DNA of 64,000 bases, taken from contig NC_081373.1 in the NCBI RefSeq assembly GCF_030684315.1, positions 40,649,989 to 40,713,988 of the forward strand, written 5' to 3'. Below, one piece after another: positions 10,396 through 64,000 of this stretch; within the stretch, counting starts at the first letter, position 1, and each line of letters opens with the position of its first letter. The notes beneath the pieces are model-generated. The model ran no database searches, was not told the origin of the DNA, and saw nothing but the letters and a program-made list of their open reading frames with translations. Source of the stretch: Stegostoma tigrinum (lineage: Eukaryota). Position numbers and translations under genes: made by a program.

Positions 10396-10563
<168 letters not shown>

Positions 10564-15051: not shown

Positions 15052-15123
15052 CTTTCTTGCCTTGTACTTCTCATCACATAGCAAATTCTCGACCTTCGAG
15101 CTAACCCCATCTTCCAGTATCTC
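15052..15123 (-). CDS. DNTT: TdT exon 5 equivalent: EILEDGVSSKVENLLCDEKYKARK
   Basis: Acceptor catcttttcatgtag|GAG, donor AAG|gtaagc; 72 nt, phase 0/0; matches TdT EI.EDG.SS.V...L.DE.Y; too short for the ORF track. Confidence 0.97.
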
Positions 15124-16190: not shown

Positions 16191-16551
16191 ATATCTGTTT
16201 TAAACTGGTACCTGCTCTCCACCCTCTTTTAAACTCAGAGTTAAATTTGCTACTTAAGCAAACAGTAGTTCTTCCCTCATTGAACCAAATTCCTAAGCAC
16301 ATGACTCTGTGTCAAGCTTCACTCAGTGACAGGTTGATCACTTTGTGCTTGCTTACTTTGCACACACAGCAAGACTACATTTATACAAGCTGAAATTCTA
16401 CAAAGATGAGTCAGTTCCGCTGACTAGAAAAATTTATTTAGACTTGCTACTTAATTGATGAATTGTCAATACAGTAGGGAATTTGTATATCCCTTACCAA
16501 GACTGAAAGAAGCTTAACTTGAGAGGCAAGTTGTAATGAAATGCTAAAAGC

Positions 16552-16695
16552 NNNNNNNNNNNNNNNNNNNNNNNNNNNNNNNNNNNNNNNNNNNNNNNNN
16601 NNNNNNNNNNNNNNNNNNNNNNNNNNNNNNNNNNNNNNNNNNNNNNNNNNNNNNNNNNNNNNNNNNNNNNNNNNNNNNNNNNNNNNNNNNNNNNN
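16552..16695. other. Assembly gap (144 N) inside DNTT intron 4
   Basis: Run of N. Confidence 1.
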
Positions 16696-17242
16696 AGCGT
16701 GGTTTGCAGAGCCTAAAAACTGGTACTACACCATGTGAGTGATGTTAGCAAGCAATTCATCACACAAATAGTAGTGGAAACCTAGGTTTTTTTTCCCACT
16801 AAATAAACTATTGAGCCTAGATAAATTGCAAACTTTTAAACTGCTAGTTATTTTTAATCTATCAAGGGTACAAAAGTAAAGCATACAGATGAAGTTAGGT
16901 GGAGGTCAGCTATAAGCTAAAGGTGGAGCTTTAATGGTCTCATTCTGTCACTATACTCAGCCATTGCACCTTCAGCTAAAATCACAATTATGCATATTTT
17001 TCCACCAAATCTCTGTGCAAGTTACTTCATTAAAGCCTTAGGAAATTTTGGCATGCTTTTCATGCTGAGCTTGTCGTATCTAATTTTGGAGGGAAAATAC
17101 ATATTAACAAGGACATTGTAAGGTTATAAGGCCAATCATCTCCATTTTATGTGCTTGATTTTAAGAAATGCAGAACACGTAATAGTTACTCTGACAAAAA
17201 TTACAGTCACCAATTTGTAATATCCTCCTCACAGTCTTGTAC

Positions 17243-17413
17243 CTCAATTATGGCTCTTGTCTGGTCTCCGAAACAGGGTAGTCCATCCAGGGCTGCCATT
17301 TTACTTATGGTGTATGGAAGGGACTTTAATAAGGAAGTTGCTCTTGCAAATGCCACATAGGCACTTTCATTTTCATTAAATTCAAAATTTTCTGCCAAAA
17401 TGTCCAGTGCATC
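17243..17413 (-). CDS. DNTT: TdT exon 4 equivalent (8-kDa domain): DALDILAENFEFNENESAYVAFARATSLLKSLPYTISKMAALDGLPCFGDQTRAIIE
   Basis: Acceptor ttttgttttctgcag|GAT, donor GAG|gtacaa; 171 nt; strong similarity to vertebrate TdT D..DILAEN.EF.ENE...F.RA.S.LKSLP. Confidence 0.97.
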
Positions 17414-18059
17414 CTGCAGAAAACAAAAATTATACTTTGAACATCGGCAATGCTACCATGCAAAATACAAAGACACGTCCTGAAGTGAGTTGACATTGAC
17501 TTTTATGATTTTCCTAAAAACAGATCTGAGGTTTTAGGGGAGAAATCGGGCCCATCAGCATTCAATTCTTTGTGAGCTACAAGTTCCACAGAGCCACATT
17601 ATGGTCCCTGTAGATGCACTGTTTTCAGGCAAGTTGTATTAGAATCAATACTGCTGACGGTGTTAGTCCTCATGTGTTGGACACACATTGCATGCACCTG
17701 GAGCAGGCAGACCATCACATTAAAAGACACACAATGCTGCTTTGATGTCATCATGACCATTTTAAATGTCAGTGCTCCAGCTCTCATCCTCTCTTAGCCC
17801 CAAAATACAGAAAACTAATTCAGCAGCAGAAATGATCCCCACAATAGTTGTATTGAAAGGAATCATTAAATCATTTTACATTACAAGGCGGTTGGTATTC
17901 TGTTGGTTGCTTTGATTCCAAAGTGTTTGGTGCTTCCCATGTCTTAAGTCGCAAAAGTCCAGAAGGGAGCGATTTGGCAGATGTTGAAAGTGTTTCTGCT
18001 CTGATTTCAAGGCTCCAGCACCAGTCAGATTCCCCTACACCTAAGTATCCCATTGGACC

Positions 18060-18258
18060 AATTGTTGGGAAAACCCAAATGGTTCACTAATGTCCTTTAG
18101 GAGGGAAAATCAGCCATTCTTTCCTGGTCTGGCCTACGTATGACTTCAGACGACAGCAATGTGGTTGATTCTTAACTGCCCTCCAGCAATTACAGATAGG
18201 CAACAAAAGCTGACCAAGCCAGTGTCACCCATTTCCTGTGAATTCATAAAATAAAAAA
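18060..18258 (+). mobile_element. SINE 3' portion sharing its tail with LINE family B
   Basis: aaaacccaaatggttcactaatgtcctttagg...ctggtctggcctac...cagcaatgtggttga; homologues at 37105-37320 and 56280-56470. Confidence 0.8.
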
Positions 18259-19689
18259 TATAACGTGCAAAGGCCAGAAAAAGCAAGCAATTCTGCTAGA
18301 GGGGAATGAGAAAGAAAGGGAGGGCATTCTCAGCAAAAGACCATAGCTATCTACAGTGTTTAGGAAGCAGTGTTTCTACCTGATCCTCAGTGAGGGACAA
18401 TGATTAATAGAGATCATGGGGAGATGCGTGACGGGAGTGTTGCCATTGGTAGCAGGTGGGATCTATCATCAATATTCTAAGCTATAAGTTCATGGGCCAG
18501 CTACGTGCCTATTCACCCCACTATCTTAACTGCATGCTGCTCCCAGAACTTGCCCTCTAACTAGTGTCACAAGTCGGATTATATACATAAATGGCCAGTA
18601 ACCATCAGTGAAGTTGGCACCCACTGTTGGTCACAATCTCAGAAAATCTTCAAAAGTGATGTTAATCCATCCACTAGAAATTGAGAAATTAGAAATTGTG
18701 CCAGATTGGGTGGAAATAGACAACTGCAGTCCTTGTCATCCATCAAAATGAAATATTTTCTTGCTGAAATACGAAATGCTTTTCTCACTTTTCTCTGGTT
18801 GATAATGGTAGAATAGGTTACAGATAAATTACAAAAATAAGTTGCCCTGTCTGAAGTGAATGGCTGTTTTCAGCATAATGGCTACCATCAGTTCTCAAAA
18901 TAACACTTTGTCATTCTGGTGATAAGCTAGTTATTTTAATAATCATTTTTCCACACAATATCAAAACCTGACATGGTGAACAATGCTAGAGAACCTTTTG
19001 ATCTAGCAGCAGGCAGCCATAAAACAAATATTTATCTTTCAATCCAATCATGTTGCCATAAAAGACCACAGCTGAAGTGAACGATTATTGGAGTCACAAC
19101 TCCAACTGTGTCCAGAATGGAAACATTTGTTTAAAAATATTCTCAAAATTGTAAGATAAATTATTGAGTGTAGGCGTTTAATTTTCACTAATAGTCTTGG
19201 TTATATTTATGCAATCCTCATAATGTAATCATTGTTGTGTTCTGTCCAACACAACTCCTCCTTGGGACACATTAACTGGCTTTTAAAATAGACAATCACA
19301 AGTAACACTGCAAGTCTCAATCATGTCTATATCTATGGCAGAAACTGCATATTGAGACAGGCCTGTGATTTAATTCTCAGCAACCAAAATGTTGTCTTGC
19401 ACTTTCATCCTCTTATGAAGAGCTGCTAGTAAGAACAATAGCACTTGGGTTTAACCAATTGCCTGCCAACAACTATATATGACAGCCTACTTACATATGG
19501 TTTTGTTTTAGAGATTCCTACTGTATTGTTACCCAAATCAAATTTGGGCTGTCATGAGAAAATGCTGCTTCTTTTTTTGAGACTTGACCATTTCTTAATG
19601 GGGGTCTTCATCAGGCAGGAGCTAATTCTAATCTCTGATTCAAATCAATTTTTTTACAACTTTTCTCACTTTCTCAAACATTTTTGAAT

Positions 19690-20130
19690 GGCTACAATTA
19701 AAACAAGAAGTACCTTACATAAATTCAATCCCAAAGCCCTTCATGGCCAATTAAGTATTTCAGAAGTGTGCTGTAATGTAGGAACATGGCGGATAATTTA
19801 TAGACAAGGTTCCACAAACAACAAAGAGATAATGGTCGCATAATTTTTTTCAGTTGTATTGATTGTGGGATAAATATTGCCAAGGATAAAAGGCAAAACA
19901 CCCTTGCTCTTTTTATGAAACAGTCTTAGGATCTGTTCACCTAAGACTCTGAGTATTGCCTAGCCTTTGTTTAAAGTTTGATCCAAATGACAGCATCATA
20001 ATCTGTGCTGTCCTCCTTCAATATAGCAGTGAAGTATCAATTGAGATTATGAGCTCAACACTCTGTTGTGGGAATTGAGCCCATGGCCTTTCAAATCAGA
20101 GATGAGTGATTTTGCACTAAGCACTTAACA
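19690..20130 (-). mobile_element. Old DeuSINE (SacSINE1-like)
   Basis: Degenerate Deu-domain-like sequence (tgtgctgtcctccttcaatatagcagtgaagtatcaattgagattatgagctcaa), tRNA-like head at the right end, L2-like tail at the left. Confidence 0.65.
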
Positions 20131-20809
20131 CTTTATTTTCCTCAAGAGAAATTTATGAAGCGTTCTCTACCATTAGCTTGCACGAAGAATTACTTTTTAA
20201 ATCCTTGCTCAGCTACGTTTTTCACAGCTACTGTTCCTTTGCTTCCACATTTGTAGACTGACATACCAATTAGGGTGTATGAAGATTCCACTTCCCAAAG
20301 GAAATGGAAATGGCCACTCAATGTAATGACTAATACATGTGAATGTTTGATTAACTATAATACTGAACCATCTCAACTGTAGTGGGGTCTGATTTTCTTG
20401 TATGTACTATCCTGTTTACTTGGAGAATGAAGTAATAAACAGACAAAGAAAAAATTCCTACAGCAGCTCAATTTTCTAGCTGACTTTGAAGTAGGCAGCT
20501 AACATTCCCACTCATAAGAGGGAGGGACCTTGTTCAAACATATAAATTAGGAACTTATTCAGGTGACAGTGGGATGTTTTGCTGGTCCAAGGCTGCTAGG
20601 CTTATGGCTGCCCATATATGTATGACTTATGTCCAAATAGATGCTGTTGCCATCAAAGCCATGCAAAGGAATGTTGAGAACTGTGAGCAAACCATTTCTT
20701 GCTGTACATTGTGCCAACTCATGAAGGGCTCTAACTTACTCACTCTTGGTTCTGAGAAGTGCCCAGCTACCTGATATTACTCTGGAAAGGTAAGGTATCT
20801 CTACAGTTT

Positions 20810-22150
20810 GAATGAGGTTGTGGGTAAATTGTTGGAAGCAAATATAAAAGGTAGGATTAATGGATATTTAGAGAGGCAAAAATTGATTAGGGATAGTCAG
20901 CATGGTTGAATGTGAGGAAAATCGTGTCTGACAAACTTGATTGAGTTTTTTGAGGAAGTTAATAGAAAGGTTGATGACGGCAGAGTAGTAGATGCTATTT
21001 ATTTGGATTTTAGTAAAGCCTTCAATAGGGTTCTTCATAGTAGTCTAGTTAGGTCACATGGGATTCAGGGTGAGCTTGCCAGTTGTACACATAATTGGTT
21101 TAACAGCAGGAGATAGACAGTAATGGTGGAGGGTTGCTTCTCAGACTGGAGGTCTGTGACCAACAGTGTTCGGCAGGGATCAGTACTGGGTCCTCTTATT
21201 TTTGTCATTTATATAAATGATTTGGATGAGAATATAGAAGGCACAGTTAGTAAGTTTATGGATGACATCAAAATCGGTGACTTAGTCTCGAGTGAAAAGG
21301 GTTTTCTAAGATGACAAAGGGTTTTTGATCAAATGGGTCAACGGGCTGAGAAACAGCAGATGGCGTTCAATCTGGATAAACATGAGGTACACAACAAACC
21401 AGAGTAGAGCTTTCACGATGAATGATAGGGCCTTGGAGAGCATTGTAGAACTGAGGGACCTGGGGTGCAGGTGCATAATTCTTTGGAGTTTGCATCACAT
21501 ATAGACAGGGTGGTTAAAAAAGCACTTGGCACACTTGCCTTCTTTGCTCAGTCCTTTGAGTTTAGGAGTTGGGATGTGATGTTGAAGTTGTACAGGACAC
21601 TGGTGAGGTCTCTTCTGAAATATTGTGTTCAGTGCTGGTCGCCCAGTTATAAGAAGGATATTATCAAGCTGGAGAAGGTTCAGAAGAGATTCATCAGGAT
21701 GTTGCTGGGTATGGGAGGTTTGTGTGATAAAGAAAGGCTGGATAGGCTGGGATTTTTCTCACTGGGAGGTTGAGAGACAACTTAATAGAAGCTTATAAAA
21801 TAATGAGAGGTGTAGATAGAGTTAATGGCAGTCATCTTTTCCTTACCTTGAAGGATTTCAAGACTACAGGGCTCGTTTTTAAGCTGAGAGGAGAGAAATT
21901 TACAAAGTAAAACATGGGGCAATTTTTTTTAAATGAAGGGTTGTTCACAAGTGGAATGAGCTTCTTCAGGAAGTGGTGTCTGATGGGTACACTTACAATA
22001 TTTAAAAGACATTTGGATAGGTACTTAAATAGGAAAGGTTTGAAGGGATGTGGGACAGCAATAGGCAAGTGTGACTAGTTTAGTTTTGGATTATGCTTGG
22101 CATGGATTGATAGGATCAGAGGGTCCAATTCCGTGCTGTATGACTCTAAA
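20810..22150 (+). mobile_element. CR1 LINE 3' ~1.3 kb (RT domain, decayed)
   Basis: ORFs 21123-21314 (QGSVLGPLIFVIYINDLDE...SKFMDD) and 21465-21773 (LYRTLVRSLLKYCVQCWSP). Confidence 0.95.
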
Positions 22151-22849
22151 ACCCTACAACAGGTGAAACTAGTGGTACGATGCGGTAGAAATGCAAGTGG
22201 TTCTCCCCACTCAGAAGATGCTGCCATCAAGAGGAAAGTATGTTCTGCCAGTCACTTAATCATTAATGTGGTATGTGAATTTCAGTGCCAATCTGGTGCC
22301 AGTAGGCCACACATTCCAAAGACTGGCAAGGCGCATCAGACATCATGTCTTTTTGTCTGTTCACAGTTAGCAGTGTAATGAGCATACCAAACCAGCCCAC
22401 ACACACTTTCCAATATTTGATGTGATTCTGCAATTAGACAACATTTTCTAGATAATCCTGAATGTAAAAAGTTAAACTGACAAACAATTTAGGATTGTCA
22501 GCTGAGTTTGCAGTGTGGTGCGTGCACTGGAAGCTACGTAAATTAATGCTTTTTGCAGGCAAGAAATACTTGGACACGTGTTTAGTTTATTTCAATGCAG
22601 CAAAATAGATGACAGCTTTTCACTGGTTTAATTTTCAGGGATATTCCCTGACCAATCAGAGCCAACTTGCCTGTTTAAAATTTAATCAAAGCCTAGCTGT
22701 CAATTATCAATCATTATTATCTGGTGCATGCTCCATGCCAACAACAAAAAATCACTTGCTAAACAACCAACACTATCCTCTCGTGCGATATAAATGCTGG
22801 TTATCCACACAAATTAAGCGAATAAAAGAGCAGAGTGTTACCTGAAGAA

Positions 22850-24185
22850 TGACTCCTGAATTCTGAGGTGCTGAGGGATCTGGGTGTTCTACATGATTCT
22901 CAAAAGATTAGTTTGCAGATAGGGCAAAAATTTAAAAGGCTAACAGAACACTATCATTTATTACAGGATGAATTTAACATAAATATAAGGATTTTACAAA
23001 CCATTGGTAAGGTCACATTTGAATACTGCACACAATTTTGATCTTCTTATTTAAGTAAGGATATAAATACATTGGAGGCAGTTCAGTTCACTGGAGGATT
23101 ACTAAATTGATACCTGGAATGAGTGGGTTGTCTTATGAGGTCAGGTTGGACAGATTGGGTTTTCAATGGGGTCCAGAAGAATGTGGGGTGTCTTGATGTA
23201 ATAAAAGATTCTGATTGCGCCTGTTTACAATGTATCTATTAATGACCTGGAGGAAGAAAGCGAATGTGTTCTAGCCAGATTTGCAGAAGATCAAAAATAG
23301 GTGGAAAGGCAAGTTGCAAGAAGATTACAGTTTACAGAGAGATATTGATAGATTAAGCAGGCAAGATGTTGGAAAATGCAGTACAATGTGGGGAAATGTG
23401 AAGTTACTTGTTTTGGAGAGGAGAACAAAAGAATATTACTCCTTAAATAGGTAAAAACTGCAGAAAGGTGCAATACTAAGGGAGCTGAGGGCACTTATGC
23501 ATGAAACACAGACAGCTAGCACACAGGTACAGAAGGTAATCAGATTAGTGGAATGCCAGCCCTTATTTCCAGACTGTAGGAGTACTAGAGTAGGGAAGCT
23601 TCACTACAAATGTACACAGTGCTGGTGAGACTGAATCTGGAGCACTACGAGCAGTTTTGGTCCCCTTATTTATGGAAAAATATTGTTTAATTGGAGGCAG
23701 TTTAGAGAAGGTTCACTAGGATGCTCCCTGGTATGGAGGGAGGTCTTATGAACAAAGGCTAAAGAAGTCGGGATTCTATTCACTGGTGTGTAAGGGAATG
23801 AGAGGTGATCTTATTGAAACATATAGGATCCTTGAGGAGCTTGACAGGGTAAATGCTGCGAGATGTTTTCCTTTATGGGAGAGTCTAGGAAAGAGGGCAA
23901 AATCTCAGAATAAAGTCTCAGAATTAAAATGGAGATGAGGAGGACTTTCTTTTCTCTGAAGGTTGAGTGTCTTTGGAAGTCCTTGCTACAGACTGCTATA
24001 GGGGTAGAGTCCTTGTATAAATTTAAGGATGAGATGTTGATATTCTTGATTAGTAGGGGAATCAAGGATTACGGGACAAGTGGGTGTAAAGAATGTTCAA
24101 TCAGCCATGATCCTAATCAACGGTAGAGCAGTATCCAAGAGCTAAACAGCCAACCCAGTTCCTATTTCTCATGGATTTATGAGCA
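22850..24185 (+). mobile_element. Two adjacent CR1 RT/3' fragments (~22850-23210 and ~23220-24185)
   Basis: INDLEEE..C..ARFAED, VRLNLEHYEQFWSP and MRRTFFSLKVECLWKSL motifs; CR1 tail. Confidence 0.88.
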
Positions 24186-25989
24186 GTCTTAATAAAGTGG
24201 ATATGGAAATTATGTTGCATCTTATGGGTGAGTCCAGAATTAAGAGGCATTTTCTTCAGCCCCAGAATCCTCCAAGATATCGGAACTGCCCCAAGTCTGG
24301 CCTCTGATGTTTCCCTGAATTGAATTACTTCACTATTTAAGGTCATTTCTTGATTTGTCCAGGACCTATGTTCTGCAATACATGTCTCCAGCTCACTCCC
24401 TAACTTTCCTCCTTTAAGGCACTCCTTAAAGATACATCTTTAATCAAGCATTTGGTCATCTGACTTAATATTTCTTAATGTGACTCAGTGTGATATTTCT
24501 TTTATAATGTTCTTTTGAAATGCCTTTGATCATTTTATCATATTAAAGGCACCATATAAATTTAATTTGTTGCTGCTACATTTAAAGATTTGTGTATATA
24601 TAAACTCAGTGAACTTTGCCTCTCTACACTGTTTAGACACATTTTTTGGAGGGGACAATGAGGGTGAAGGGGCATTGATAGTAAGGGGGCAGTAAGGCTC
24701 AGGGAACACTGAGGGTTGGATGCTTGGAGGGAGTGGTCTGGTCTTGATGGTGATGGCACATGGCTTGTGTGATAACCGTAGATGTTAACCATTAGGGTGT
24801 CCTGTGACCATGCTGGGGGAGGAACAGGGTGGGCTGGGCCAGGGTTAAAGTTGAGGCGGGGCTTTTCTGATCACTGGGAGATTTGGCGATCACTGTTTGC
24901 TCCATGATCGCTTGAAGGATTTCTCAGGGAGATCCTGATTGTTAGGGATTTCTTGGTGAAAGCAGGAGCAGAAAAGAGGTCTATGATTGGGAGTGGTGGA
25001 AGTTGGCTGGTCACCTTTAGAAGTGAAAATGTATTAGCGTATGTTTGATATTTCTTACACTTTAAAATCTCAGCTGACGCAACTTTACTGTTTCCTTGAA
25101 GGTTAAAATAATGCCCTTTACCTCCAGGCCAAGGCAAATTACAATGCAGATGATCGCTGATGTTGTAACACATCTATCATTGCTTATCCTTAATATTTAA
25201 CTGGAGCTTGAACAGACGACAAGTTTATGGAACGTTATGTAAAATGTACACCCAATCTTAAATTAAACCTAGGTATCGTTTCTCCTTTACTTTAATGTAA
25301 TCGGAATTTTAGGCTTCCAATTTAAGTTTTGAATTTGCATATACATGCCAACTGCAGTGTTCACTAGATGTGCAAACAATGACAGCTGATATTTGATCCG
25401 GTAATTACTTGCCATATTTTATAACTGCAGGATCTTATGGCACCTTTTCTTGGCACATAGAAGTGGTACTAAATGTATTCTGAAATGTACCCCAGCAGGC
25501 AGCATACATGAAAGAAAAGAGGAAATAAATAACAGTGTTGATGAGTTTTTCTACTATGCTGAAACATATCGTGCACTGGAAGTGCAAAAACGTCTCACAC
25601 TCTGCATTTGACAAAAAAAGAAGTACATTCATCACATTAATTGCAGTTAGCTTTCTCACTTTGCGTCTAGTTTATTCAACTTCACTTTTGTGGAGACATT
25701 TCATAAAATGAATTGTAAAAGGTATTGCATTCAACACAAAACAAAATCTACGGGGATAAAAATCCCAATGAGATCCATTAGTGGGCACAGAGATTGCCAA
25801 GCTCCATTACTCCATGCCCAGGCCAAGTGACATAGGCAGCATGCAAATATTGTTCTGTCTGCTCAATTAAATGGTGCATATTGACTCACTACATACTCAG
25901 ATGTATGCAGGCCTAACGTGCTAGCCTATAATTCTTAAAGGCAGCTCGACCTCCAAAGTGTTTCTGAGATGGAAAAGGATTTCTTGTGG

Positions 25990-26215
25990 AGCAAAAGGCC
26001 AAAGAGTGGGCTCCCTGGTTCTCGAAAGCAAGACTGGAGGCATTGGTCCAAGAAGTGTAAGTAAGGCTAGAGATTATCTTTCTGCAGAGGGCTGTGTGTC
26101 TCCTTGTGTGCACACACGAAAGAGAATGTGAGCAGCTAGCCAAGGAGGTCAGTCCCAAGGAGTCTGGCCCCGAGGATATGGCTGGTGTTTTGTAATGCAT
26201 GTTCAAGGGTTACCT
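25990..26215 (+). mobile_element. Decayed Myb/SANT-like coding remnant (Harbinger-type)
   Basis: APWFSKARLEALVQEV*VRLEIIFLQ...CEQLAKEVSP, like PRF...LE.LV.EV..R...F.....W...A..V. Confidence 0.6.
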
Positions 26216-27888
26216 GCTACACACCATATCAGCAAACTCGCACACAGCTCAATTCACCAAACTGCCACTCGCCCTCCAGCAGTCAAAATCTAGCATTCAG
26301 ATACTGCATCTCATCCTCAGATACAAAACACAGTTTCAAATCTCACTGTCGCGTTTTGCAGCTTCAGTTTGTTTACAGCTATTCAGCTACAATAGGCATA
26401 TCACAAACACATTGTAATATACGGACTGATGGCCTTTCCTGACTATTGCAGAGTAACTGGCATATAACAGAATACAGCAGAGTTCTTCCTGCCCCTTTGG
26501 CCATTCCATTGGCTTAAAAACCTTTCCATTTCTGTTTCTCATCAGTTCTGAGAAAAAGTCATTGATCTGAAATATTTCTCTCTATAGATAACACCTAACC
26601 TGCTGAGGTTTGTCTAGCAATTTTTATTCTTGCTATATTTATTATTGTTCCTTAGTTGTACACATATACAGTGCTTACCCTTTTTTCAAAACTTATAATA
26701 TCTTGCAGTTTGCAAGGCTCAGTCTGGTTGGTTTGACAGCCAGGTGATAGCACTGTGTATTCTCTAGTGGACTGCTTTGAATCCTGCAGCAAATGTTGGT
26801 AGGCACATTTAGTGCGAGTTTGGTGAGCAGTCTATCAGGGTGACCACACTGCAAGTTGAGCTATCTTTGAAATTCTATTTGTGGAGGAGGTATGTTATTC
26901 TTGCATTGAGAAAGTGGATTGCATTAAGTGTGGACCACTGTTTTTGAAACAAGTCAAACCCTGGACACTCCACCTCCTACTGAAGTGATGCATTGTGGCT
27001 ACTGGCAGTGCTGCACTATGTAATAAGCATAAAGGTTATCAGATTGGAGAACTTGGTGGAAGAGATAGAAAGTACAGATGCCCTGTATCCTCAAAGGTTA
27101 GAAACGAAAAGGCTTTAGTATGATGCAGAAAAGGAAGTCAATGTTAACAGCAGCTCCATGTGCCTGATTACAATTCAGGAAGAAGTTTAATGCTTCTCTT
27201 TGTCAGTGAGTGTATGTTCCCATGCCACGCCCTACCACCTTCACCACTAAGCCTCATTAACTGCTCAGATCAACATACTGTCAGCAGTCCGACAATCTCT
27301 GTCAATCAGGACTCATTTGTATCATTCATTTGCTTCATCCCTTCAACACAAAGTTAACATTGCTGTAAGTCCCAAATCTACATCATTTGTACACAACATA
27401 GCTATTCAACCATGATAGACAATTCCCCAGACTTTTGACACTCATTAGCACATTTTCTACTTCCTTGCAGGAGATGTTGGCAGACAAAACAGGAATGAAC
27501 AAAATATGAAGAGGCACTACTGCATGTTTCGAGTGCCATGAGGGAGAAAGTATTGGCTATTAGAAGAATGTTGTGACCACTAGCATGCATAAAACAACTG
27601 AACAAGAGAATATCTGCATAGTTTATCCTCTCTCTCACATCTGAATTCTTCCTCATCCTCAATCTATTCTGGTATCTCAGCTGCAGATGATGCAAGCATC
27701 CACTACTGACTTTTGCTTCTCCTCTTACCACATCCCAATCCTTTCCCCTTCTTCAATAACTCAGCACCAGGCAGATCATTCATTGTAGACTATTGAAAAT
27801 ATTAATAATTTTGGAAAAGCATCCAAAATATTTGGAAATGTAGTATGTACCAAAAAAAGGTAGTATCTGAATTGCAAGTAGGTTATGA

Positions 27889-28100
27889 AGGAGCAAATTA
27901 CTGCAGATGCTGGAATACTAAATGCTGGAGATTATAGCAGACAGGCAGCAGCCATGGAGAGAGACCAAGCCTACATTTCAAGCCTACTAATGCTTCAAGT
28001 GTCAATGACTGTTCATCTCTAGACTTGAAACTTTAGCTTCCTGTCTCTCTATGAATGTTGCCTGACCCGCTGTGATCTCTAGCAGTTGTTGTTTTCAGTG
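27889..28100. mobile_element. Old palindromic PLE-derived mini-element
   Basis: Left arm (tgctggagattatagcagacaggcagcagccatggagagaga) is an imperfect reverse complement of the right arm (tctctctatgaatgttgcctgacccgctgtgatctctagca); same tail family as 40394-40480. Confidence 0.7.
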
Positions 28101-28652
28101 CAAGTGAGTTTTGATCATTTTAAATAGTGCTGGTGAAGAGGCCTTCATGCTATTTAAAATTATACTCAAGGAGCACAAGCTAGAGCCTGGGGTTCTCTAA
28201 TGGGGACATTATCTGACTGTCCAGCATCCTGCTAACAAGCATTGGGTACACGTGTGCAAATCCCTTTACAAGCATGGCATATGCTATACTTGCCACTGAA
28301 GTGCACACACTCACTGTAGACCCTATGTTCGTAATTTATGAAGCCTTATGACACCCAAGAAACAATTGGCTACAGAGGCCAATATCTCCCACAGGCTGAG
28401 CAAGCAAAGGGCCTATATAGGTTTGGATGAATTTTAAGAATAGTGAATTGTCCATGGATGAAGTGCACATAAGATGTCCCATGACAGTCAGAAGCTCCCT
28501 TTAGGGGAAACCAGGGGAAATAGTTGTCTTGGATCATACAGAGCACCAGTGCTTTAACAAAATACCAAAGTCTCTAAATTCTTCCACAGACTTGTAATAC
28601 ATGCCAAAGTCAAAAATAGGATTTCTTCACAAAATTCCACTTGAATCATTAC

Positions 28653-28757
28653 CGTGAAGATCTTGTTTCTATTGTTAAGGGTTGAACTCCTCTGACATGC
28701 ATATTGAGAAACAGTTACCACCGGTGGAGGTAATGGAAGATTTGATTGAAGCGTCTT
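28653..28757 (-). CDS. DNTT: TdT coding exon (exon 3 equivalent): KTLQSNLPLPPPVVTVSQYACQRSSTLNNRNKIFT
   Basis: Contains the TdT/Pol-mu SQYACQR..TLNN.N.IFT motif; donor ACG|gtaatg; acceptor ttgttttatttctttatgtgcag|AAG; 105 nt, phase 0/0, in frame with the next exon. The 5' boundary is uncertain by 6 nt (28763 vs 28757). Confidence 0.93.
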
Positions 28758-35669: not shown

Positions 35670-36051
35670 GTGAAGGTAGCTTTGGGAGTTTGTGGCTTTG
35701 TAGTGGATGGCAGGACCTTGAAAAATTTGTTCATTTTGATTCCAATTTCCACCCCTCTATAACTTTCTCATCATCCATTTCGGACACTTCCCTTCCTTTC
35801 CTTGACTCCTCTGTCTCCATCTTGGCGAATAAACTGACGATTGCTAGTTACGTACAAATCCATTCTACCTTTCTGGGCACAAGGGATCAAATCCCACCAG
35901 GGCAGATGGAGAAAATTAAAGGGGTTTTGTGTTGCAGCGGTGTTGACTATACCTTTGGATGAGAAGGCACGAGTACTAGTCCCATCTGATCCAGAGGTGT
36001 GTCAAAACATCACTCAACAGTTTACTCAGAAAATATCTAAGCAAGTTATTG
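35670..36051. repeat. Left arm of 382-bp inverted repeat (partner 37430-37811)
   Basis: Reverse complement of 37430-37811 with 3 mismatches found by eye; the ORF track shows the same peptides on opposite strands. Confidence 0.97.
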
Positions 36052-37429: not shown

Positions 37430-37811
37430 CAATAACTTGCTTAGATATTTTCTGAGTAAACTGTTGAGTGATGTTTTGACACACCTCTGGAGCAGATGGG
37501 ACTAGTACTCGTGCCTCCTCATCCAAAGGTATAGTCAACACCGCTGCAACACAAAACCCCTTTAATTTTCTCCATCTGCCCTGGTGGGATTTGATCCCTT
37601 GTGCCCAGAAAGGTAGAATGGATTTGTACGTAACTAGCAATCGTCAGTTTATTCGCCAAGATGGAGACAGAGGAGTCAAGGAAAGGAAGGGAAGTGTCCG
37701 AAATGGATGATGAGAAAGTTATAGAGGGGTGGAAATTGGAATCAAAATGAACACATTTTTCAAGGTCCTGCCATCCACTACAAAGCCACAAACTCCCAAA
37801 GCTACCTTCAC
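37430..37811. repeat. Right arm (probable donor) of 382-bp inverted repeat
   Basis: Partner of 35670-36051; continues seamlessly into the PLE after 37811. Confidence 0.97.
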
Positions 37812-44841: not shown

Positions 44842-45401
44842 TGAAACAGCAACTCATATTCCGCCTGGGAACCCTGCAGCCATATGGTATCAATGTGGAC
44901 TTCACCAGTTTCAAAATCTCCCCTTCCCCCACTGCATCCCTAAACCAGCCCAGTTCATCCCCTCCCCCCACTGCACCACACAACCAGCCCAGCTCTTCCC
45001 CCCCACCCACTGCATCCCAAAACCAGTCCAACCTGTCTCTGCCTCCCTAACCGGTTCTTCCTCTCACCCATCCCTTCCTCCCACCCCCAGCCGCACCCCC
45101 AGCTACCTACTAACCTCATCCCACCTCCTTGACCTGTCCGTCTTCCCTGGACTGACCTATCCCCTCCCTACCTCCCCACCTACACCCTCTCCACCTATCT
45201 TCTTTGCTCTCCATCTTCGGTCCGCCTCCCCCTCTCTCCCTATTTATTCCAGTTCCCTCCCCCCATCCCCCTCTCTGATGAAGGGTCTAGGCCCGAAACG
45301 TCAGCTTTTGTGCTCCTGAGATGCTGCTTGGCCTGCTGTGTTCATCCAGCCTCACATTTTATTATCTTGGAATCTCCAGCATCTGCAGTTCCCATTATCT
45401 C
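44842..45401 (+). mobile_element. Young PLE 3' fragment (GIY-YIG C-terminus, C-rich 3' region, hammerhead arm), 9-bp TSD
   Basis: QQLIFRLGTLQPYGINVDFTSF; TSD tgaaaaatg at 44833-44841 and 45402-45410. Confidence 0.92.
45275..45302 (+). ncRNA. Minimal type-I hammerhead ribozyme motif in a PLE arm
   Basis: CTGATGA-A-GGGTCTAGGCCC (stem II)-GAAAC-GTC: intact core with the palindromic ACGT mini stem III; stem I is weak; activity not shown. Confidence 0.7.
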
Positions 45402-45858
45402 TGAAAAATGGTGTAGTCAGTTCAGTGGGAGTGGTGGGAGAGTGCACTCAATCCCAATTGGTCGATTCATGTCAGAGGATCAATACAGGAACTGGTGAAG
45501 TGGAAGGAATGGTCACCAAGACAGGGACCAGTTGAATATTGTAGTCAGATATCTGGAATCTGAGGGGCTAGGAGTGTAGGTCTCAAGAGGTTGGGGAGGA
45601 GGGAGGTATAGAGAGCCAAAGAACCTCAGGGTAATGAATGAATACTGGAAGAACAACAAATTTCAGGTAAAGAAATGGGAGCAACTAGTTTTTTCATCAA
45701 AAAAAATGCATAGATTTGATGGGCTAAATTACCTCATGTGCTGCATCATTCTATGATTCCAAGTCATGCAATACCAGAAAGTTTGTAAAGAATAATTGGT
45801 CAATTTCAAATCCTATTGGGACCAATGAAATAAACAGCAATGTTTATTCAAATTGTCT

Positions 45859-45860
<2 letters not shown>

Positions 45861-45889
<29 letters not shown>
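45861..45889. repeat. (CA)14 microsatellite
   Basis: Direct read. Confidence 0.98.
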
Positions 45890-45892
<3 letters not shown>

Positions 45893-46452
45893 CAATTTTA
45901 CTTTGCATTCTGCTGCGCCATCACATAGTTGTATTTATAAGCTGCATCTCATTTACTTCACAGCACAGAAAACTATTATGATGACATTGGTTTCATTATT
46001 TTTTGCAAAATGTTATATATTTATTCAAATCAGCATCAAGACAAAATAAATAGAGGTGCTGCTATTTTGAAATATTGCCTATCCCTTTGTCTCTACAAAA
46101 ATGTACAAAATTTGCATTATGAAGAATGTCTTTTATTGAACACGCTTATTAGTGCAAATTCATTACTTTGGAACAGAAAATACATCACAGAGTCTTATAT
46201 ATAAGCTATAATGTACGTTAGATGAAGTATGTGATACTGTTCCAAAGTAACACATAATCCCATTCAGGCTCATGGAAATATGGGCCAGATTTTGCAGTCA
46301 ACGGTGAATTTCAGTGAACATTTCAAATTGTTACGTCTGCAGTTTTTTCACAGATATTTTGGGGACTTCTTCATTGGATTTGTCTCTCACTTAGCATCAA
46401 AATAGTGCACTGCCCTCTACAGGACATCTGTAAACAGGACAAGTAATTGTGA

Positions 46453-46691
46453 GATAATAAGATGTCAAGCTGGATGAACACAGCAGGCCAAGCAGCATCA
46501 GAGGAGAGGGAAAGTTTCCGGCCTAGAACCTTCTTCAGAAATGTTCAGAAATGTGCATTTCTGAAGAAGGATCTAGGCCCGAAACGTCAGCTTTCCTGCT
46601 CCTCTGATGCTGCTTGGCCTGCTGTGTTCATCCAGCTCCACACCTCGTTATCTCAGATTCTCCAGCATCTGCAGTTCTTACTATCTCTCTG
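46453..46691. mobile_element. Palindromic PLE mini-element (two inverted arms) with 12-bp TSD
   Basis: gctggatgaacacagcaggccaagcagcatcagaggag pairs with ctcctctgatgctgcttggcctgctgtgttcatccagc; TSD aagtaattgtga at 46441-46452 and 46692-46703; hammerhead core CTGAAGA-A-GGATCTAGGCCC-GAAACGTC at 46561-46588. Confidence 0.9.
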
Positions 46692-46911
46692 AAGTAATTG
46701 TGACTCAGCCACTGAAATTGAGAAATCAGTAATGCACAGCCTCACGTCTGAATCAGGAAGCACCAGCTGGAACAGTTAATTCAAAATCAAATCAGGTACA
46801 GCAAGTTAAATAAAGGGACAGAAAGAACTGGAAAAGAGAGAAACCAAAAAAAAGTCAGAAAAGCGAAAACAAAAGGTACAGTTTCGAATAATTGTCCAGA
46901 AATAATCATCC

Positions 46912-47097
46912 AAGTGCTCTGATTTCCTCCCACAGTAAAAAGATGTGCAGGTTAGGTGGATTGGTTATCTTAAATTACCCACAGTGTCTAGGATGGGAAA
47001 TGCAGGGACAGGATAGTGGGTGGGATGCCCTTCGGAGGGGGGGTGTGGACTCAGTGGACCAAATGGCCTGCTTCTACTCTGTAGGGATTCTATGATT
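46912..47097 (+). mobile_element. 5'-truncated HE1-type SINE
   Basis: tttcctcccacagtaaaaagatgtgcaggttaggtggattgg...tgtagggattctatgatt. Confidence 0.85.
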
Positions 47098-47651
47098 CAA
47101 CAATTAAAATGTGAAGGAATTAGACTCGACAGCAACAGCTTGTATTCATATACTGACTTTAACTTTGTAAATTATCACAATGTGTGACAGGAACATCATC
47201 TACCAAAATTCAACATATGCCACATGACGGGATATTATGACCACAAGATTAAGACAAATAATAAATGAGTGGAAAGAAGTAGAGAGGCTTTGGGAATGAT
47301 ACCAAAGCCGAGGCCGTGGTGAAGCAATTGAAATCAGGGTTGGATGACAGGATTTTAGGTGACCTCAAGTCTAAGGAGGGTAGACTGTACGACGAATGCA
47401 ATATTGTGCAGAATAAGCTGAGTTTACGGCCCAATATTTTGGTAGAAACTTGTTGCTGAAGTGTCGACAGGAGTTGTGCATCGGGGCCGTATGGATGTCC
47501 TGATGCAGCTAATTCAGCAGGAATTACCTGGGAATTTTAAATGTCCAGTGGGCAATTACTCTGAAACCCTCCAACAAAGTCCCAAATCTAAGTCAGAGTT
47601 GGAGACATCAGATGGTTCTGAGTCACTTACCTAAAAAGGTTAGAGAAACTA

Positions 47652-47737
47652 AAGATAACAAAGTGTGGAGCTGGATGAACACAGCAGGCCAAGCAGCATC
47701 TCAGAAGCACAAAAGCTGACGTTTCGGGCCTAGACCC
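47652..47737 (-). mobile_element. PLE arm fragment
   Basis: Reverse complement of 45283-45368; lacks the CTGANGA core. Confidence 0.85.
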
Positions 47738-58800: not shown

Positions 58801-59380
58801 TCCATAAAAGTGAAATTTATTCCTGTATCTGTACTTTCTTGAAAAAAAATTACATTTATTATGTTTCAATCTGATTGGGCCTTTCCAGAATGTGGAGAAC
58901 TACTGAAGAATTTTGGAAAATTACAATCAATCATCTATAATTTCAACTGCCACTTCTTCTTAAGACCCTAGGAGCAGATTCTGGGGATTTGAATTAAATT
59001 GAATTAGCTTTATTGTCACACATACTCACAGTGAAGAAAAGTTTACACTTATAGTGGCATCTTAGATACCAAGGCACCTAGATACAGATTCTTAAGTACA
59101 AATTCTTCGGGAAAAAATTAGAAACCAACGATAAAGTCCAGCAGTACAGACGTTGAAAAGTACAAAAACATGGTAATAAATTAGAAAAATAAAGAAATAA
59201 AAAGTTCAGAATAACAGTCCTTCCATGAAAATATAATAAAGAAAAAAATTTAAAGACAATGAGTATTTAAGACAAAAGTCTTAAATTGTGAGTCTTTAGT
59301 TCTAATTGAGCGCTTTCCATGGTCATTGTATTACCTGACATTCAAAAGCCTTTTCACAATCTAAAAGATACAAGTCAGTG

Positions 59381-60590
59381 TGGGTTCTGCCAGGGCCACT
59401 CAGCTCCTGACCTCATCACAGCCTTGGTTTAAACTTGGAAAAAACAGCTGAATTCCAGAGGTGAGGTGAAAGTGACAGCCCTTGACATCAAGGCTGCATT
59501 TGACTGAGTGTGGCATCAAGGAACCCTCAGCAAAACTGGATTCAATGTGTATTAAGGGTAAACTCTCCAAAGGTTAGAGATATACTTAACACATCGGAAG
59601 ATGGTCATCATTGTTGGAGGTCAGTCATCTCAGCTCCAAGACAGCTCTTCAGTAGTTCCTCAGAGTCGTGTCCTGCGGTCAACCATCTTCAGCTGCTTCA
59701 TCAATGACCTTCCTTCCATCATAACCTTAGAGGTGGGGATGTTCACCGATGATGGCACAATGTTTAGCACCATTCATGACTCCTCAGATACTCAGCAAAT
59801 ACAACAAGATCTGGGCAATATCCAGACTTGGGCTGACAAGTGGCAAGTAACATTTGTGTCACACAAATGCCAGGCTATGGCCATCATCAATAAGAGACAA
59901 TCTAACCACAGCCCTTGATATTCAATGGTGTTACCATCACTGAATCCCCCACTAACAACACCATGGGGTTACCATTAACAGGAAGTGCAACTGGACTCAC
60001 TGGGTAAACACAGTGGCTACAACAGCAGGTCAGAGGCTTGGAATAATGCCTTGAGTAAAACACCCCCTGACTCCCCAAAGCCTGTCCACCATCTACAAGG
60101 CACAAATCAGGAGTGTGATGGAATAGTCCCCACTTGTATGGATGAGTGCAGTCCCAACAACACTCAAGAAGCTTGACAACATCGAGGACAATGTAGCCCA
60201 CTTGATTAGCACCAAATCCACAAGCAACTGCTCCCTCCAACACCAATGCTCAGTGCAGCAGTTTGTATTATCTGCAAGATGCACTGCAGAAATCCATCAA
60301 ACACCCTCAGAAAGCACCTTCTAAACCCATGACCATTTCCATCTAGAAGGACCAAGGCAGCAGACACAAGGGAACACCACCATCTTCAAATTCCCGTCCA
60401 AAGCCATTCATTAATCTGACTTGAAAATATTCTACTGTTTCTTCATTGTTGCCGGATCAAATTCCTGGAATTCGCTCCATAACGGCATTGAGGTAGACTG
60501 CAGTGGTTCAAGAAGGCAGCTCACCGCCACCTTGGGCAGCTAAGCATGGGCAATAAATTCTGGCAACGCCCACATCCCAAAAATGAATCT
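59381..60590 (+). mobile_element. LINE family B 3' half (RT and tail); lies inside the inferred inversion
   Basis: ALDIKAAFD*VWH, VPQSRVLRSTIFSCFINDLP, MFTDD, DKWQVTF motifs. Confidence 0.93.
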
Positions 60591-60999
60591 ATAATTAAAT
60601 AAATAAATCCTCGTCCTTGGCTTCAAACTTCTTAGTCACCTCTATCCCTTTAACCTCCTCCCGCCTCATATATTTCTGAGACACCCATCCTCCTCAAATT
60701 ATTAGCTTTTGTGCATTCCCAGATTCTCTGCCTAAAACTCTCCTACTCTACTCTCTGTTCTCTTTTAAAATGTTACTTAAAAATTATCCCTTTCACAACG
60801 CCTTTGCTGATGCGCCCTAATGTTTACTTCTGGGTTTCTGTGTTCAGATTTGACATTATGCTTCAGTATGATTGGAAGCATCACAGGAGCAGCAGGGCAT
60901 TCAGATGCTCTAACCTCTCCAACTGAGTCAGGCCACGGATGGACTCTATCATAACTCCACTGATCTGCCCATCCATCCATAATCCTTCATAAGCTTCAT

Positions 61000-61500
61000 T
61001 CATTCATTGAATGTGGGCATCATTAACAAGACAAAGATTGATTGCTCATCCTGAATTGCCTTTGAAAGTGTCTTGTTAATTTGCCTTCTTAAACCACAGT
61101 CGTCTTGGACTAAAAGTAACCTTTTGATGTGCTATTAGTTTGTTCCATAGTGGAATTGGCCCTGGGAATTTGATTCAGTGATGATGAAGGAATTGTGATA
61201 TATTTCCTAATCAGGATAATTTGGTGCATTGTTGGGGGAAATTTGGAAGTCACAGCTTTCCCATGTGCACGCTGACTTTAGCCTTCCGAAACATAACGGT
61301 TATGAGTTTAGAGGGTGGTTTCTGAGGAGTCTTGACAAGTTGCTCATGTACCTTCTGAGTTGGCACACACAACGTATCAGCACTGTTGATGAAAGGAGTG
61401 GTGGATTAAAGCTGGTAGACAGGGTGCTAATCAAGTTGATTACATTGTCTTGGATGAGCATCAAGCACCTGAAGTGTAAGTAGAACTACACTCTTCCAGA
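61000..61500 (-). mobile_element. Old family-B LINE 3' end
   Basis: cattcattgaatgtgggcatc...attgctcatcctgaattgcc is the reverse complement of the family tail. Confidence 0.65.
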
Positions 61501-61782
61501 AGGTGGAGGTCTGGGTAGGAACTCCATCTCAGGACCAGATGCCCACAGAAGGCGAATCATAATGTGACCAAGCAAGTTGATTATCGATATATAAATCTTT
61601 CCAATACATCTATGGCAGGCAATAAGAGTGAGAGAGTTTCCTGTCTAGCCAAAAGCCAGGAGCAACTGCATGGAACAGCCTCTCCCATGTTAAAAGACTC
61701 TACATGCAGGTTTTTGCCATGGGCAAATATAATCTTCATTCCTAGAATCTACGATACAATTAGCCAGGCAAATTGAGAGTAT

Positions 61783-63350
61783 TCAAATGCAGCCTTGATG
61801 TCAAGGGCTGTCACTTTCACCTCACCTCTGGAATTCAGCTGTTTTGTCCAAGTTTAAACCAAGGCTGTAATGAGGTCGGGAGCTGAGTGGCCCTGGCAGA
61901 ACCCAAACTGGGCATCGCTGAGTATGTGCTGCTTGATAGCACTGTTGAAGACACCTTCCATCACTTTACTGATGACTGAGAGTAGACTGATGGGGAAATA
62001 ATTGGGCAGTTTGGATTTGTCCTTCTTTTTATGTATAGGACATACTTGGGCAATTTTCCACATTGTTGGGTAGTTGCCAGTGTTATAACTGTCCTGGCAC
62101 AGTTTGGCTGGGGGGGCAGCATGTTCTGAAGCACAAGTCTTCAATTTCATTGCTAGAATGTTGTCAGGACCCATAGCCTTTGCTGTATCCAGTGTCTCCA
62201 ACCATTTCTTGATATCACATGGAATGAATTGTATTGGCTGAACACTGGTATTTGTAATGCTGGGGATAAAGTTTTATCTTTTGCATTGATGTGCTGGACT
62301 CCTCCATCATTGAAGATGTGGATATTTGTGGAGCTTCCTCCTCCTGTGAGCTGTTTAATTGTCCATCACCATTCATGACTGGATGTGGCAGGATTGTAGA
62401 GTTTAGATCTGATCCATTGGTTGTGGGATCATTTAACTTTGTCTACCTCCTGCTATGTTTACCTCATCTTCAGGCATGCCTGGTGCTGGTCCTGGTATGC
62501 CCTCCTGCACCCTCTATTGAACGAGGGTTGATCCTCTGGCTTGATGGTAATGGTTGAGTGGGGGATATGTCGGGCCAAGAGGTTACAGATGGAGTACAAT
62601 TCTGCTGCTGTGGATGGCCCACAGCGCCTCATGGATGCCCAGTCTTGAGTCGCTAGATCTGTGTGAAGTCTGTTCCATTTAGCACGGTGATAGTGCCAGA
62701 CAACACGTTGGAGGTCTTTCTCAATGCAAAGGTGGAACATTGTCTCCACAAGGACTATGCAATAGTCAATCTTACTGATACTGTCATGGACAGATGCATC
62801 TGCAGCTTCAGACTGGTCAGGATGAGGTCAAGTAGGCTTTCCCCCTTGTAAGTTCCTGCACCACCTGGCGCAGACCCAGTCCACCAACCACATCCTTTGG
62901 GGTCCGACCAGCTTAATCTGTACTACTGCTGCCGGGTCACTCTTCATGGTGGACTTTGAAAGCCCCCCTCCCAGAGTACATTTCGTGCCTTTTCCATCCT
63001 CAGTGCTTCCTCCAAGGGTTGTTCAACCTGGAGGAGCACTGCTTCATCAGCTGAGTGAAGATGGTATATGGTAATCAGAAGGAGGTTTCCTTGCCCATGT
63101 TTAACCAGAAGCCATGAGACTTTGTGGGGTCTGGAGTCAATGTTGAGGACTTCCAGGCCAACTCCCACCCGACTGTATACCACTGTGCCATAACCTCGGA
63201 TGGGTCTGTCCTGCCAGTGGGACAGGACATATTCAGGGATGGTGTAGGTGGTGTCTGGGACATTGTCTGTTAGGTATGATTCTGTGAGTATGACTATGTC
63301 AGGCTGTTGCTTGACTAGACTGTGAGACAGCTCTCCCAATTTTGGCAGAT
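61783..63350 (-). mobile_element. LINE family B 5' half (APE endonuclease and RT N-terminus)
   Basis: ORF 62944-63363 QQPDIVILTESYL...; ORF 61854-62201 KAMGPDNI...PISLLSVISKVME...QFGFCQGHSAPDLITALV. Confidence 0.93.
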
Positions 63351-63369
63351 GCAGCCTACTCACACAGGC

Positions 63370-64000
63370 CTAGGCCACTACCCTGAGGAACTCCTGCAGG
63401 AGGCCTGGAGCTGAAATGACTGACTTCCATCAACCACGACCGTCTTCCTTCGTGTCAGGTATGACTCCACCACCAGAGAGTTTTTCCCCGATACCCATTG
63501 ATTCCAGTTTTGCTCGGGCTCCTTGATGCCACATTCGGTTAAATGCAGCCTTGATGTCAAGGGCTGTCGCTCTCACCTCTCCTCTGGAATTCAGCTCTTT
63601 TGTCCATGTTTGAACCGAGGCTGTAATGAGGTCAGAAGCTGAGTGGCCCTGGTAGAACCCAAACTGGGCATCACTGAGCAGGTTATTGCTGAGCAGGTGC
63701 TGCTTGATAGCGCTGTTACTGACACCTTCCATCACTTTACCAATGATCAAGGCTGAACTGATGGGGCAGTAATTGGCCAGGTTGGATTTGTCCTATTTTT
63801 TATGTATAGGATATACTTGGGCTATTTTCCACATTGTTGGGTAGACGCCAGTGTTGTAACTGTACTGGCACAGTTTGGATAAGGGAGCGGCAAGTTCTGG
63901 AGAACAAGGCTTCAGTACTATTGCCGGAATATTGGCTGGGGCCATAGCTTTGCAATATCCACTGTCTCTAATCATTTCTTGCTATAACGTGGAGTGAATG
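63370..64000 (-). mobile_element. Separate LINE family B RT fragment
   Basis: ORF 63430-63750 QFGFYQGHSASDL...ALDIKAAFNRMWHQG. Confidence 0.92.

What the first reader, a model, noticed from the sequence alone, without database searches (positions are those of the whole stretch)
59330..61910. ~2.4-kb inversion with a 123-bp inverted duplication, supported by two LINEs that re-form when it is flipped
59381-59503 and 61783-61905 are inverted copies (3 mismatches) sharing variants, including a CAA>TAA stop (gtttaaacttgg), that are absent from the paralogue at ~63540-63665. Flipping 59504-61782 has two effects. (a) It joins the minus-strand LINE 5' half (63350-61783, ending gctgcatttga) to its continuation ctgagtgtggcatcaagg. 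(b) It joins the left flank ...aaagccttttcacaatctaaaagatacaagtcagtgtg to aatactctcaatttgcctgg, restoring an older LINE segment like the intact one at ~60077-60150. This is a staggered-break or template-switch inversion that post-dates LINE decay. It is the second local inverted duplication within ~25 kb of the same intron.
Basis: seen in the sequence. Interest (0 to 1): 0.7.

Follow-up and report, generated by a model that had tools for sequence, protein, structure and literature searches.

The report
Flipped intron segment with mirrored ends
A 2.3-kb piece of an intron in a TdT-like immune gene lies back to front between two mirrored 123-base copies, splitting two dead jumping-gene remnants; it is likely the harmless scar of one copying or repair slip of a kind already described in humans and flies.

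Summary
Real, and of a known kind. The arms 59381-59503 and 61783-61905 match at 120 of 123 bases and share four bases that differ from the majority of 29 other copies; none of the 29 has more than two. The 2,279 bases between them are inverted: one LINE copy runs through both arms' native sides, and an older LINE stops at 59378 and resumes, about 10 bases on, at 61782 on the other strand. Both junctions are unique in the genome and appear in contigs of another individual; a relative about 94% alike has the LINE tail but leaves the window's sequence at 61786. One odd result: two more distant relatives match across the right junction. Geometry equals the 1-3-4-2 template-switch type and one-sided staggered-break inversions. 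It lies in an intron of a TdT-like gene, touching no exon found. The 'second event' at 35.7-37.8 kb is more likely an inserted inverted copy, and such pairs occur about once per 160 kb (10 in 1.6 Mb), so two in one intron is unremarkable. The scan noted insertion-linked inversions elsewhere in this genome.

The parts
59334..59378 (+). Left flank: short piece of an older LINE copy, cut at the left breakpoint
   Evidence: nhmmer profile positions 115-159, E 5.7e-6; 10 of 45 bases off the family majority
59376..59380 (+). Left junction zone: 3-base microhomology (59376-59378), 6 of 7 bases alike to 59382; exact switch point ambiguous
59381..59503 (+). Left arm: new copy of 123 bases of the younger LINE's reverse-transcriptase-like region
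59504..60608 (+). Inverted segment, part 1: 3' part and tail of the younger LINE
   Evidence: aligns to family copies to about 60590; 138 of 1085 bases off majority
60609..61035 (.). Inverted segment, part 2: host DNA between the two LINE tails
   Evidence: no long match to the family; covered by relative's contig 60548-61617
61036..61507 (-). Inverted segment, part 3: 3' part of the older LINE
   Evidence: profile positions 178-629, E 1.4e-43
61508..61754 (.). Old SINE-like repeat nested in the older LINE, between two decayed copies of about 25 LINE bases (possible target duplication)
   Evidence: 40 genomic matches at 69-83%; ends; 'SINE' is my label from size and copy number
61755..61782 (-). 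End of the inverted segment: continuation of the older LINE from 59378
   Evidence: profile positions 172-199, weak alone (E 0.11); 17 other LINE copies within 2 mismatches of 61760-61784
61783..61905 (-). Right arm: the original 123 bases; 2-base microhomology at 61783-61784
   Evidence: 54 third-copy alignments cross its right edge
61906..63345 (-). 5' part of the younger LINE, left in place
   Evidence: 39 of 361 and 115 of 1027 bases off majority
63367..64000 (-). Separate paralogous LINE copy (runs out of the window)
   Evidence: 111 of 123 to the left arm
35670..36051 (+). Second pair, left arm: likely an inserted inverted copy of 37430-37811
   Evidence: 379 of 382; the same 7 bases span both of its edges
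37430..37811 (+). Second pair, right arm: native on its right side
   Evidence: 9 third-copy alignments cross its right edge, none the other three edges
28653..28757 (-). Exon-like stretch of the TdT-like host gene; nearest downstream exon found (ends approximate)
   Evidence: motif match and splice-like ends
17243..17413 (-). Exon-like stretch of the TdT-like host gene (lyase-type helix-hairpin-helix part)
   Evidence: Pfam HHH_8 E 2e-5 below cut-off; E 1e-16 to TdT chains, 8e-10 to Pol mu

Best explanation
This is a 2.3-kb intronic inversion with a 123-128-base inverted duplication at one breakpoint and about 10 bases lost at the other, likely made in one germline event by two template switches of a replicating or repairing strand, and likely neutral. 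Shown: the inverted geometry, the duplication, the small loss relative to other LINE copies, the short microhomologies. Inferred: the strand left the older LINE at a 3-base microhomology, landed 2.4 kb away on the opposite strand inside the younger LINE, copied back through arm, tail and host DNA to within 10 bases of where it had left, and returned at a 2-base (perhaps 4-base) microhomology 123-128 bases short of its landing point (order 1-3-4-2). Inferred age: after most of the LINE's decay and after the split from a relative about 6% diverged. I put the inversion itself at about 0.93 and this mechanism at about 0.55.
For: Diagonal pattern of native joins: 58 third-copy alignments cross the left arm's inner edge and 54 the right arm's outer edge, 0 cross the other two. 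Older LINE split across the two breakpoints on opposite strands, 9-11 bases apart in reference copies. The two halves of the younger LINE are equally decayed, 11-13% and 11%. Four derived bases shared by both arms; 14, 12 and 3 of 29 other copies carry 0, 1 and 2 of them, none more. Each junction pattern occurs once in 3.2 Gb. Run X16, an individual that differs from the assembly nearby, has contigs 59199-59405 and 60505-61810 at single-copy depth. Run X8 (organism A, about 94% alike) has the LINE tail in place (60548-61617) but its contig fits only to 61786 and then has 98 letters that do not follow the window. Microhomology at both junctions. One initiating event explains duplication, inversion and deletion together; type 1-3-4-2 is 23% of high-confidence human-chimp events (PMC5453318).
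Against: In one search, one unlisted record in each of X10 and X12 (organisms B, C) covers 61760-61800, across the right junction, and by the class counts is 95-99% alike; I could not see it. The 98 loose letters of X8 were not printed, so the un-inverted join is not seen directly. X16's contigs reach only 25 and 28 letters into the arms, under the tool's 31-letter rule for bridging. Microhomologies of 2-3 bases are near chance. The four-point model was built for much shorter events; a 2.4-kb switch-back is an extension. A staggered break gives the same product. Arm similarity alone is not unique: 2 of 406 pairs among other copies also differ by only 3 of 123.
Confidence: 0.55

Rival explanations
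1. Same inversion, made by two breaks 2.3 kb apart, one staggered by about 125 bases and filled in, the other nearly blunt and trimmed by 10 bases, rejoined by end joining at microhomologies.
For: Identical product. One-sided inverted duplications are 12 of 18 duplication-bearing Drosophila inversions and are explained by one staggered and one plain break; median duplication 321 bp, shortest 46 (PMC1885836 passages).
Against: Needs two breaks close together and a long fill-in, where template switching needs one stalled end (inference). No hairpin-prone sequence at the four ends (z -0.43 to 1.03), which favours neither.
Confidence: 0.33
2. The inversion and duplication arose while the younger LINE was inserting (twin-priming-like or repair-linked), as noted for Penelope-type insertions elsewhere in this genome.
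For: One breakpoint and the duplicated bases are inside a LINE; earlier notes e1-9532882 and e1-9016473 describe insertion-linked flips in this genome (unchecked).
Against: The LINE halves are 11-13% off the family majority but the arms only 2.4-3.1% apart; if the distance to majority is age, 4 or fewer differences has P 6e-9. Organism A has the tail in place without the right junction. The flipped piece includes 1.2 kb of host DNA beyond the tail.
Confidence: 0.04
3. The junctions are old, shared with distant relatives, and the arms were homogenised later by gene conversion; organism A lost or changed the right junction.
For: The unlisted 95-99% records over 61760-61800 in X10 and X12. Arm distance alone only weakly favours an age younger than the split from organism A (P 0.06-0.12).
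Against: Those records stop at 61760, at the edge of an old nested repeat that an orthologue should carry; X10 and X12 have no depth at 61730-61759 at 85%. Four pieces are unlisted for two records, which fits ordinary LINE copies laid in two pieces; 2 of 11 copies tested hold both motifs 436-603 bases apart, though with 4-5 mismatches.
Confidence: 0.04
4. Two independent LINE insertions that happen to overlap by 123 bases, or an assembly chimera.
For: The region is conserved in the family (mean pairwise 8.8%, minimum 3 of 123). No long reads were laid.
Against: Does not explain the older LINE split in register on opposite strands, the four shared derived bases, or junction-spanning contigs in another individual.
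Confidence: 0.03
5. Ectopic recombination between the two tail-to-tail LINEs.
For: Before the flip the older and younger LINE 3' ends faced each other and were roughly 70% alike over some 450 bases; note e1-9908521 describes a hybrid-LINE junction in another shark genome (unchecked).
Against: Both junctions are out of register: the right one joins the end of the arm to a LINE position 617 bases further 3', and the left one is offset further still; crossing over in register would duplicate nothing.
Confidence: 0.01

Closest known systems
Four-point template switch, type 1-3-4-2 (Loytynoja and Goldman 2017, PMC5453318; parts 1-2 of 6 and passages read)
   Same: One reverse-complemented fragment; product is an inverted repeat around an inverted spacer; switch points in the order 1-3-4-2.
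   Different: Their search concerns short mutation clusters in unmasked sequence; this fragment is 2.4 kb and lies in repeats.
Staggered-break inversions with inverted duplications (Ranz et al. 2007, PMC1885836; passages read)
   Same: Inverted duplicate of one breakpoint at both ends; size within their 46 bp to 1.9 kb range; one-sided case described.
   Different: Theirs are large chromosomal inversions, often duplicating genes; this is 2.3 kb inside one intron.
CNV-flanked inversions dupINV / INVdup (Collins et al. 2017, PMC5338099; passages read)
   Same: Inversion flanked by a duplication, here with a 10-base loss at the other end.
   Different: Below their roughly 5-kb resolution; apparently fixed or common here rather than a rare variant (one other individual seen).
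'Inverted Dup' class of the 1000 Genomes SV map (Sudmant et al. 2015, PMC4617611; passages read)
   Same: Copies under 1 kb within 5 kb of the other copy, 54% of sequenced inversion sites; fits the 35.7-kb pair and most informative background pairs.
   Different: As I read it the spacer is not inverted in that class; in this finding it is.

Membership tests
Template switch type 1-3-4-2 | [quoted passage not shown] | tested here: met
Template switch type 1-3-4-2 | Order of points 1<3<4<2 on the ancestral sequence | tested here: met
   inferred ancestor: 3 lies about 10 bases after 1; 4 lies 123-128 before 2; ancestor not seen directly
Template switch type 1-3-4-2 | Both switches within one replication fork | not testable with these tools
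   2.4-kb span; mechanism leaves no distinct mark
Staggered-break inversion | Inverted duplication of ancestrally single-copy breakpoint sequence | tested here: met
   four derived bases shared by the arms, at most two in any of 29 other copies
Staggered-break inversion | Origin by staggered breaks and end joining | not testable with these tools
   same product as template switching
dupINV / INVdup complex variant | Inversion with a flanking copy gain | tested here: met
dupINV / INVdup complex variant | Un-inverted allele seen in another genome | tested here: inconclusive
   X8 leaves the window at 61786 but its 98 further letters were not printed
Repeat-mediated (non-allelic recombination) inversion | Junctions in register within pre-existing inverted repeats | tested here: not met
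   offset 617 bases at the right junction; arms are product, not cause
LINE 5' inversion by twin priming (features recalled, not read) | Inversion confined to the element and formed at insertion | tested here: not met
   1.2 kb of host DNA flipped; arms far closer than the copy's decay
Inserted inverted copy ('Inverted Dup') | One arm native on both sides, spacer not inverted | tested here: not met
   native joins are diagonal, 0/58/0/54

The most novel reading that the evidence does not exclude
Kilobase-range template switching is a major, undescribed source of structural change in shark genomes: about 20,000 locally private inverted duplications (10 in 1.6 Mb, scaled to 3.2 Gb), mostly inserted mirror copies with a minority of true inversions like this one, each datable from nested repeats, giving a fossil record of germline replication slips in a slowly evolving vertebrate.
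Probability: 0.25. Interest if true: 0.45.

Novelty: new member of a known kind. Interest (0 to 1): 0.2.

Why it matters
Little by itself: an intronic scar in dead repeats. It is a clean teaching case, because two nested LINEs fix both breakpoints, the direction of change and the relative age from one genome. If fixed in this species and absent in its relative it is a low-homoplasy lineage marker. The by-product, a rate of about one private inverted pair per 160 kb, suggests a genome-wide survey would be more informative than this locus.

Tried and rejected
An internally deleted LINE subfamily behind the right junction: the junction pattern occurs once in the genome. Hairpins at the breakpoints: none beyond shuffles. 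Removal of cryptic poly(A) signals as a benefit: the flip moved 2 AATAAA to the strand opposite the host transcript, but 25 others remain on the transcribed strand in 28800-64000. An exon inside the inversion: none found by Pfam on the 140 longest of 336 low-repeat frames or by motifs. Pfam placement of the LINE: 5 fragments, no relevant family, so 'CR1/L2-type LINE' is my label from recalled reverse-transcriptase and endonuclease motifs, not a call result. Topology of the 35.7-kb pair by repeats: no third copy crosses its inner edges. First read-laying was swamped by LINE paralogues (6,612 joints not shown); the second did not print the key loose end. Target-site duplication of the younger LINE: ends printed, none evident by eye, not tested formally. 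Paper searches for this locus or for such scars in sharks listed nothing on it; the library is partial.

Full report
1. Observation. Self-comparison finds the inverted pair 59376-59503 / 61783-61910 at 97%. Base by base, 59381-59503 and 61783-61905 differ at 3 of 123 sites, and the five bases before add one more mismatch at 59380. The window lies on a 58-Mb contig of a 3.2-Gb assembly; earlier notes of the scan call the genome a shark's, which I did not check. The arm is part of an abundant LINE family (4,341 candidates, 40 scored). It translates as a reverse-transcriptase-like stretch with a stop at 59430 (the family label is from recalled motifs, Pfam gave nothing on five fragments).

2. Are the arms a duplication? 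Against the 29 best other copies (chosen for likeness to the left arm, so a hard control), the best match is 116-117 of 123 and the arms match each other at 120. Similarity alone is not decisive: 2 of 406 pairs among those copies also differ by 3. But both arms carry the same four non-majority bases (seen in 4, 2, 10 and 2 of 29 copies), and no copy has more than two of the four. Of the ten sites where both arms differ from the neighbouring paralogue, six are the paralogue's own changes. Since the duplication the left arm has two or three changes and the right arm one.

3. Is the spacer inverted? The younger LINE is continuous from the left arm into 59504 onwards and from the right arm into 61906 onwards; third-copy alignments crossing the four arm edges number 0, 58, 0 and 54. 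This diagonal pattern cannot come from simply inserting a mirror copy. The two halves are equally decayed (11-13% and 11% from the majority). Independently, the left flank 59334-59378 is an older LINE piece on the + strand at profile positions 115-159, and the far end of the spacer, read on the - strand from 61782, takes up at 172 (weak alone, E 0.11) and, after a nested repeat, runs to 629 (E 1.4e-43). In 11 genomic copies picked by the far-end motif, the left flank's best local alignment ends 9-11 bases before that motif in 9 (L100-L106, L109, L110), 15 in one and off target in one; the score exceeds all 200 shuffles in 7 of 11 (L100-L102, L104-L106, L109). (The observation field gives 8 of 11; 9 of 11 is the count from the call.) About 10 bases are therefore missing at this breakpoint, unless the older copy had lost some before. 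The left junction has a 3-base microhomology (6 of 7 bases alike), the right one 2 bases. Each junction pattern is found once in the genome with up to two mismatches.

4. Other individuals and species. The run search gave four runs of the window's species and 14 of four other organisms at 0.10-0.14 of words. X16 differs from the assembly by several bases and an 11-base gap nearby, so is another individual; its contigs 59199-59405 (no difference) and 60505-61810 cross both junctions at depth 18-19 against 21 in the flank, though only 25 and 28 letters reach into the arms, under the tool's 31-letter rule. X8 (organism A) has 60548-61617 at about 94%, which starts inside the LINE tail, so the insertion predates that split; its next contig fits 61593-61786 and carries 98 more letters that do not follow the window. 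That is what an un-inverted allele predicts, with up to 4 bases of microhomology, but the letters were cut from the output. Against the reading: X10 and X12 each show one record over 61760-61800, not listed, which the class counts put at 95-99%. They have no depth over 61730-61759, four pieces are unlisted for the two records, and ordinary LINE copies can hold both motifs on one strand (2 of 11, 436 and 603 bases apart), so a two-piece paralogue match is plausible, but I could not confirm it. X2, a second sample of organism A, had no orthologous cover there.

5. Age. Four shared against one to three private changes per arm, and 2.4-3.1% between arms against about 11% decay, put the event in roughly the last tenth to third of the copy's life. 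Against a 6% species distance the arms are closer than expected only at P 0.06-0.12, so the age relative to organism A rests on the X8 contig.

6. Setting. A frame at 17243-17413 (-) matches TdT chains at E 1e-16. Motif searches place further exon-like stretches at about 10560 and 28653-28757 in the window and at about 70.2 kb and 82.0 kb on the window's scale, beyond it. Both inverted pairs lie in the 41-kb intron between 28.8 and 70.2 kb; no exon was found in the inversion (one search scanned 140 of 336 low-repeat frames).

7. The second pair and the background. 35670-36051 / 37430-37811 match at 379 of 382. Only the right arm's outer edge is shown native. The same seven bases span both edges of the left arm, as expected if a mirror copy was inserted into a continuous site; an inversion would explain five of them equally well and leave two to chance, so insertion is favoured modestly. 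In 1.663 Mb held (0.66 Mb around the window, five 200-kb stretches of other contigs, picked by round coordinates), 419 pairs of at least 70 bases, 90% and spacer up to 30 kb were found; 14 inverted pairs lacked a comparable third copy, 11 of them with spacer up to 10 kb, 10 outside the window. The finding's own pair passed this filter and failed it once its nearest genomic copies were added, so the filter undercounts pairs inside LINEs. That is one per 160 kb; another within a 64-kb window has chance 0.33. Of the 14, none shows the diagonal inversion pattern, five look like inserted copies, two weakly so, and seven are uninformative. Private direct pairs with a spacer were about as many (11 by my count, leaving out one tandem array, one short overlap and the C1 duplicate). 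Some inverted pairs could be terminal repeats of low-copy DNA transposons, which this small library cannot exclude.

8. Mechanism. On the inferred ancestor the switch points fall in the order 1-3-4-2, the type that makes an inverted repeat around an inverted spacer (PMC5453318). One staggered plus one plain break gives the same product (PMC1885836). I favour template switching (0.55 against 0.33) because one stalled end explains inversion, duplication and loss, with microhomology at both joins; the sequence cannot separate the two. Recombination between the facing LINEs fails on register, formation at insertion fails on age.

9. Verdict. Confirmed, ordinary in kind (also the dupINV/INVdup class, PMC5338099; the neighbouring pair fits the inverted-duplication class of PMC4617611), probably without effect. 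Interest 0.2.

Noticed in passing
window 10560-28757 (-) and G000:C24 about 40720170-40732200: Host gene is TdT (DNTT)-like, spread over roughly 190 kb by motif hits, with a 41-kb intron holding both inverted pairs.
   Followed up: partly
window 35670-36051 / 37430-37811: 382-base inverted pair at 99.2%, younger than the finding; likely an inserted mirror copy with short microhomology at both edges.
   Followed up: partly
G000:C1:90024405-90069699: 22.6-kb direct duplicate at 99.996% around a 13-base run of N; likely an assembly overlap.
   Followed up: no
G000:C1:90142096-90157598: Three nested private inverted pairs (75, 711 and 244 bases, 93-95%, 10-15 kb apart), perhaps one older complex event.
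   Followed up: no
G000:C24:40714340-40717927, just right of the window: Two 1,629-base copies of a young repeat in inverted orientation, 99.1% alike, 330 bases apart, in the same intron; a third copy is as close, so two insertions or one mirrored insertion.
   Followed up: no
window 61487-61782: Old SINE-like repeat nested in the older LINE between two decayed copies of about 25 LINE bases, a possibly long target duplication.
   Followed up: partly
window 58896: Run X16 lacks 11 bases here and has several other differences from the assembly nearby.
   Followed up: no
window 436-933 and 45274-47737: Short repeat ends in inverted pairs (for example 436-522 / 811-897), resembling the Penelope-type mirrored insertions noted elsewhere in this genome.
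   Followed up: no
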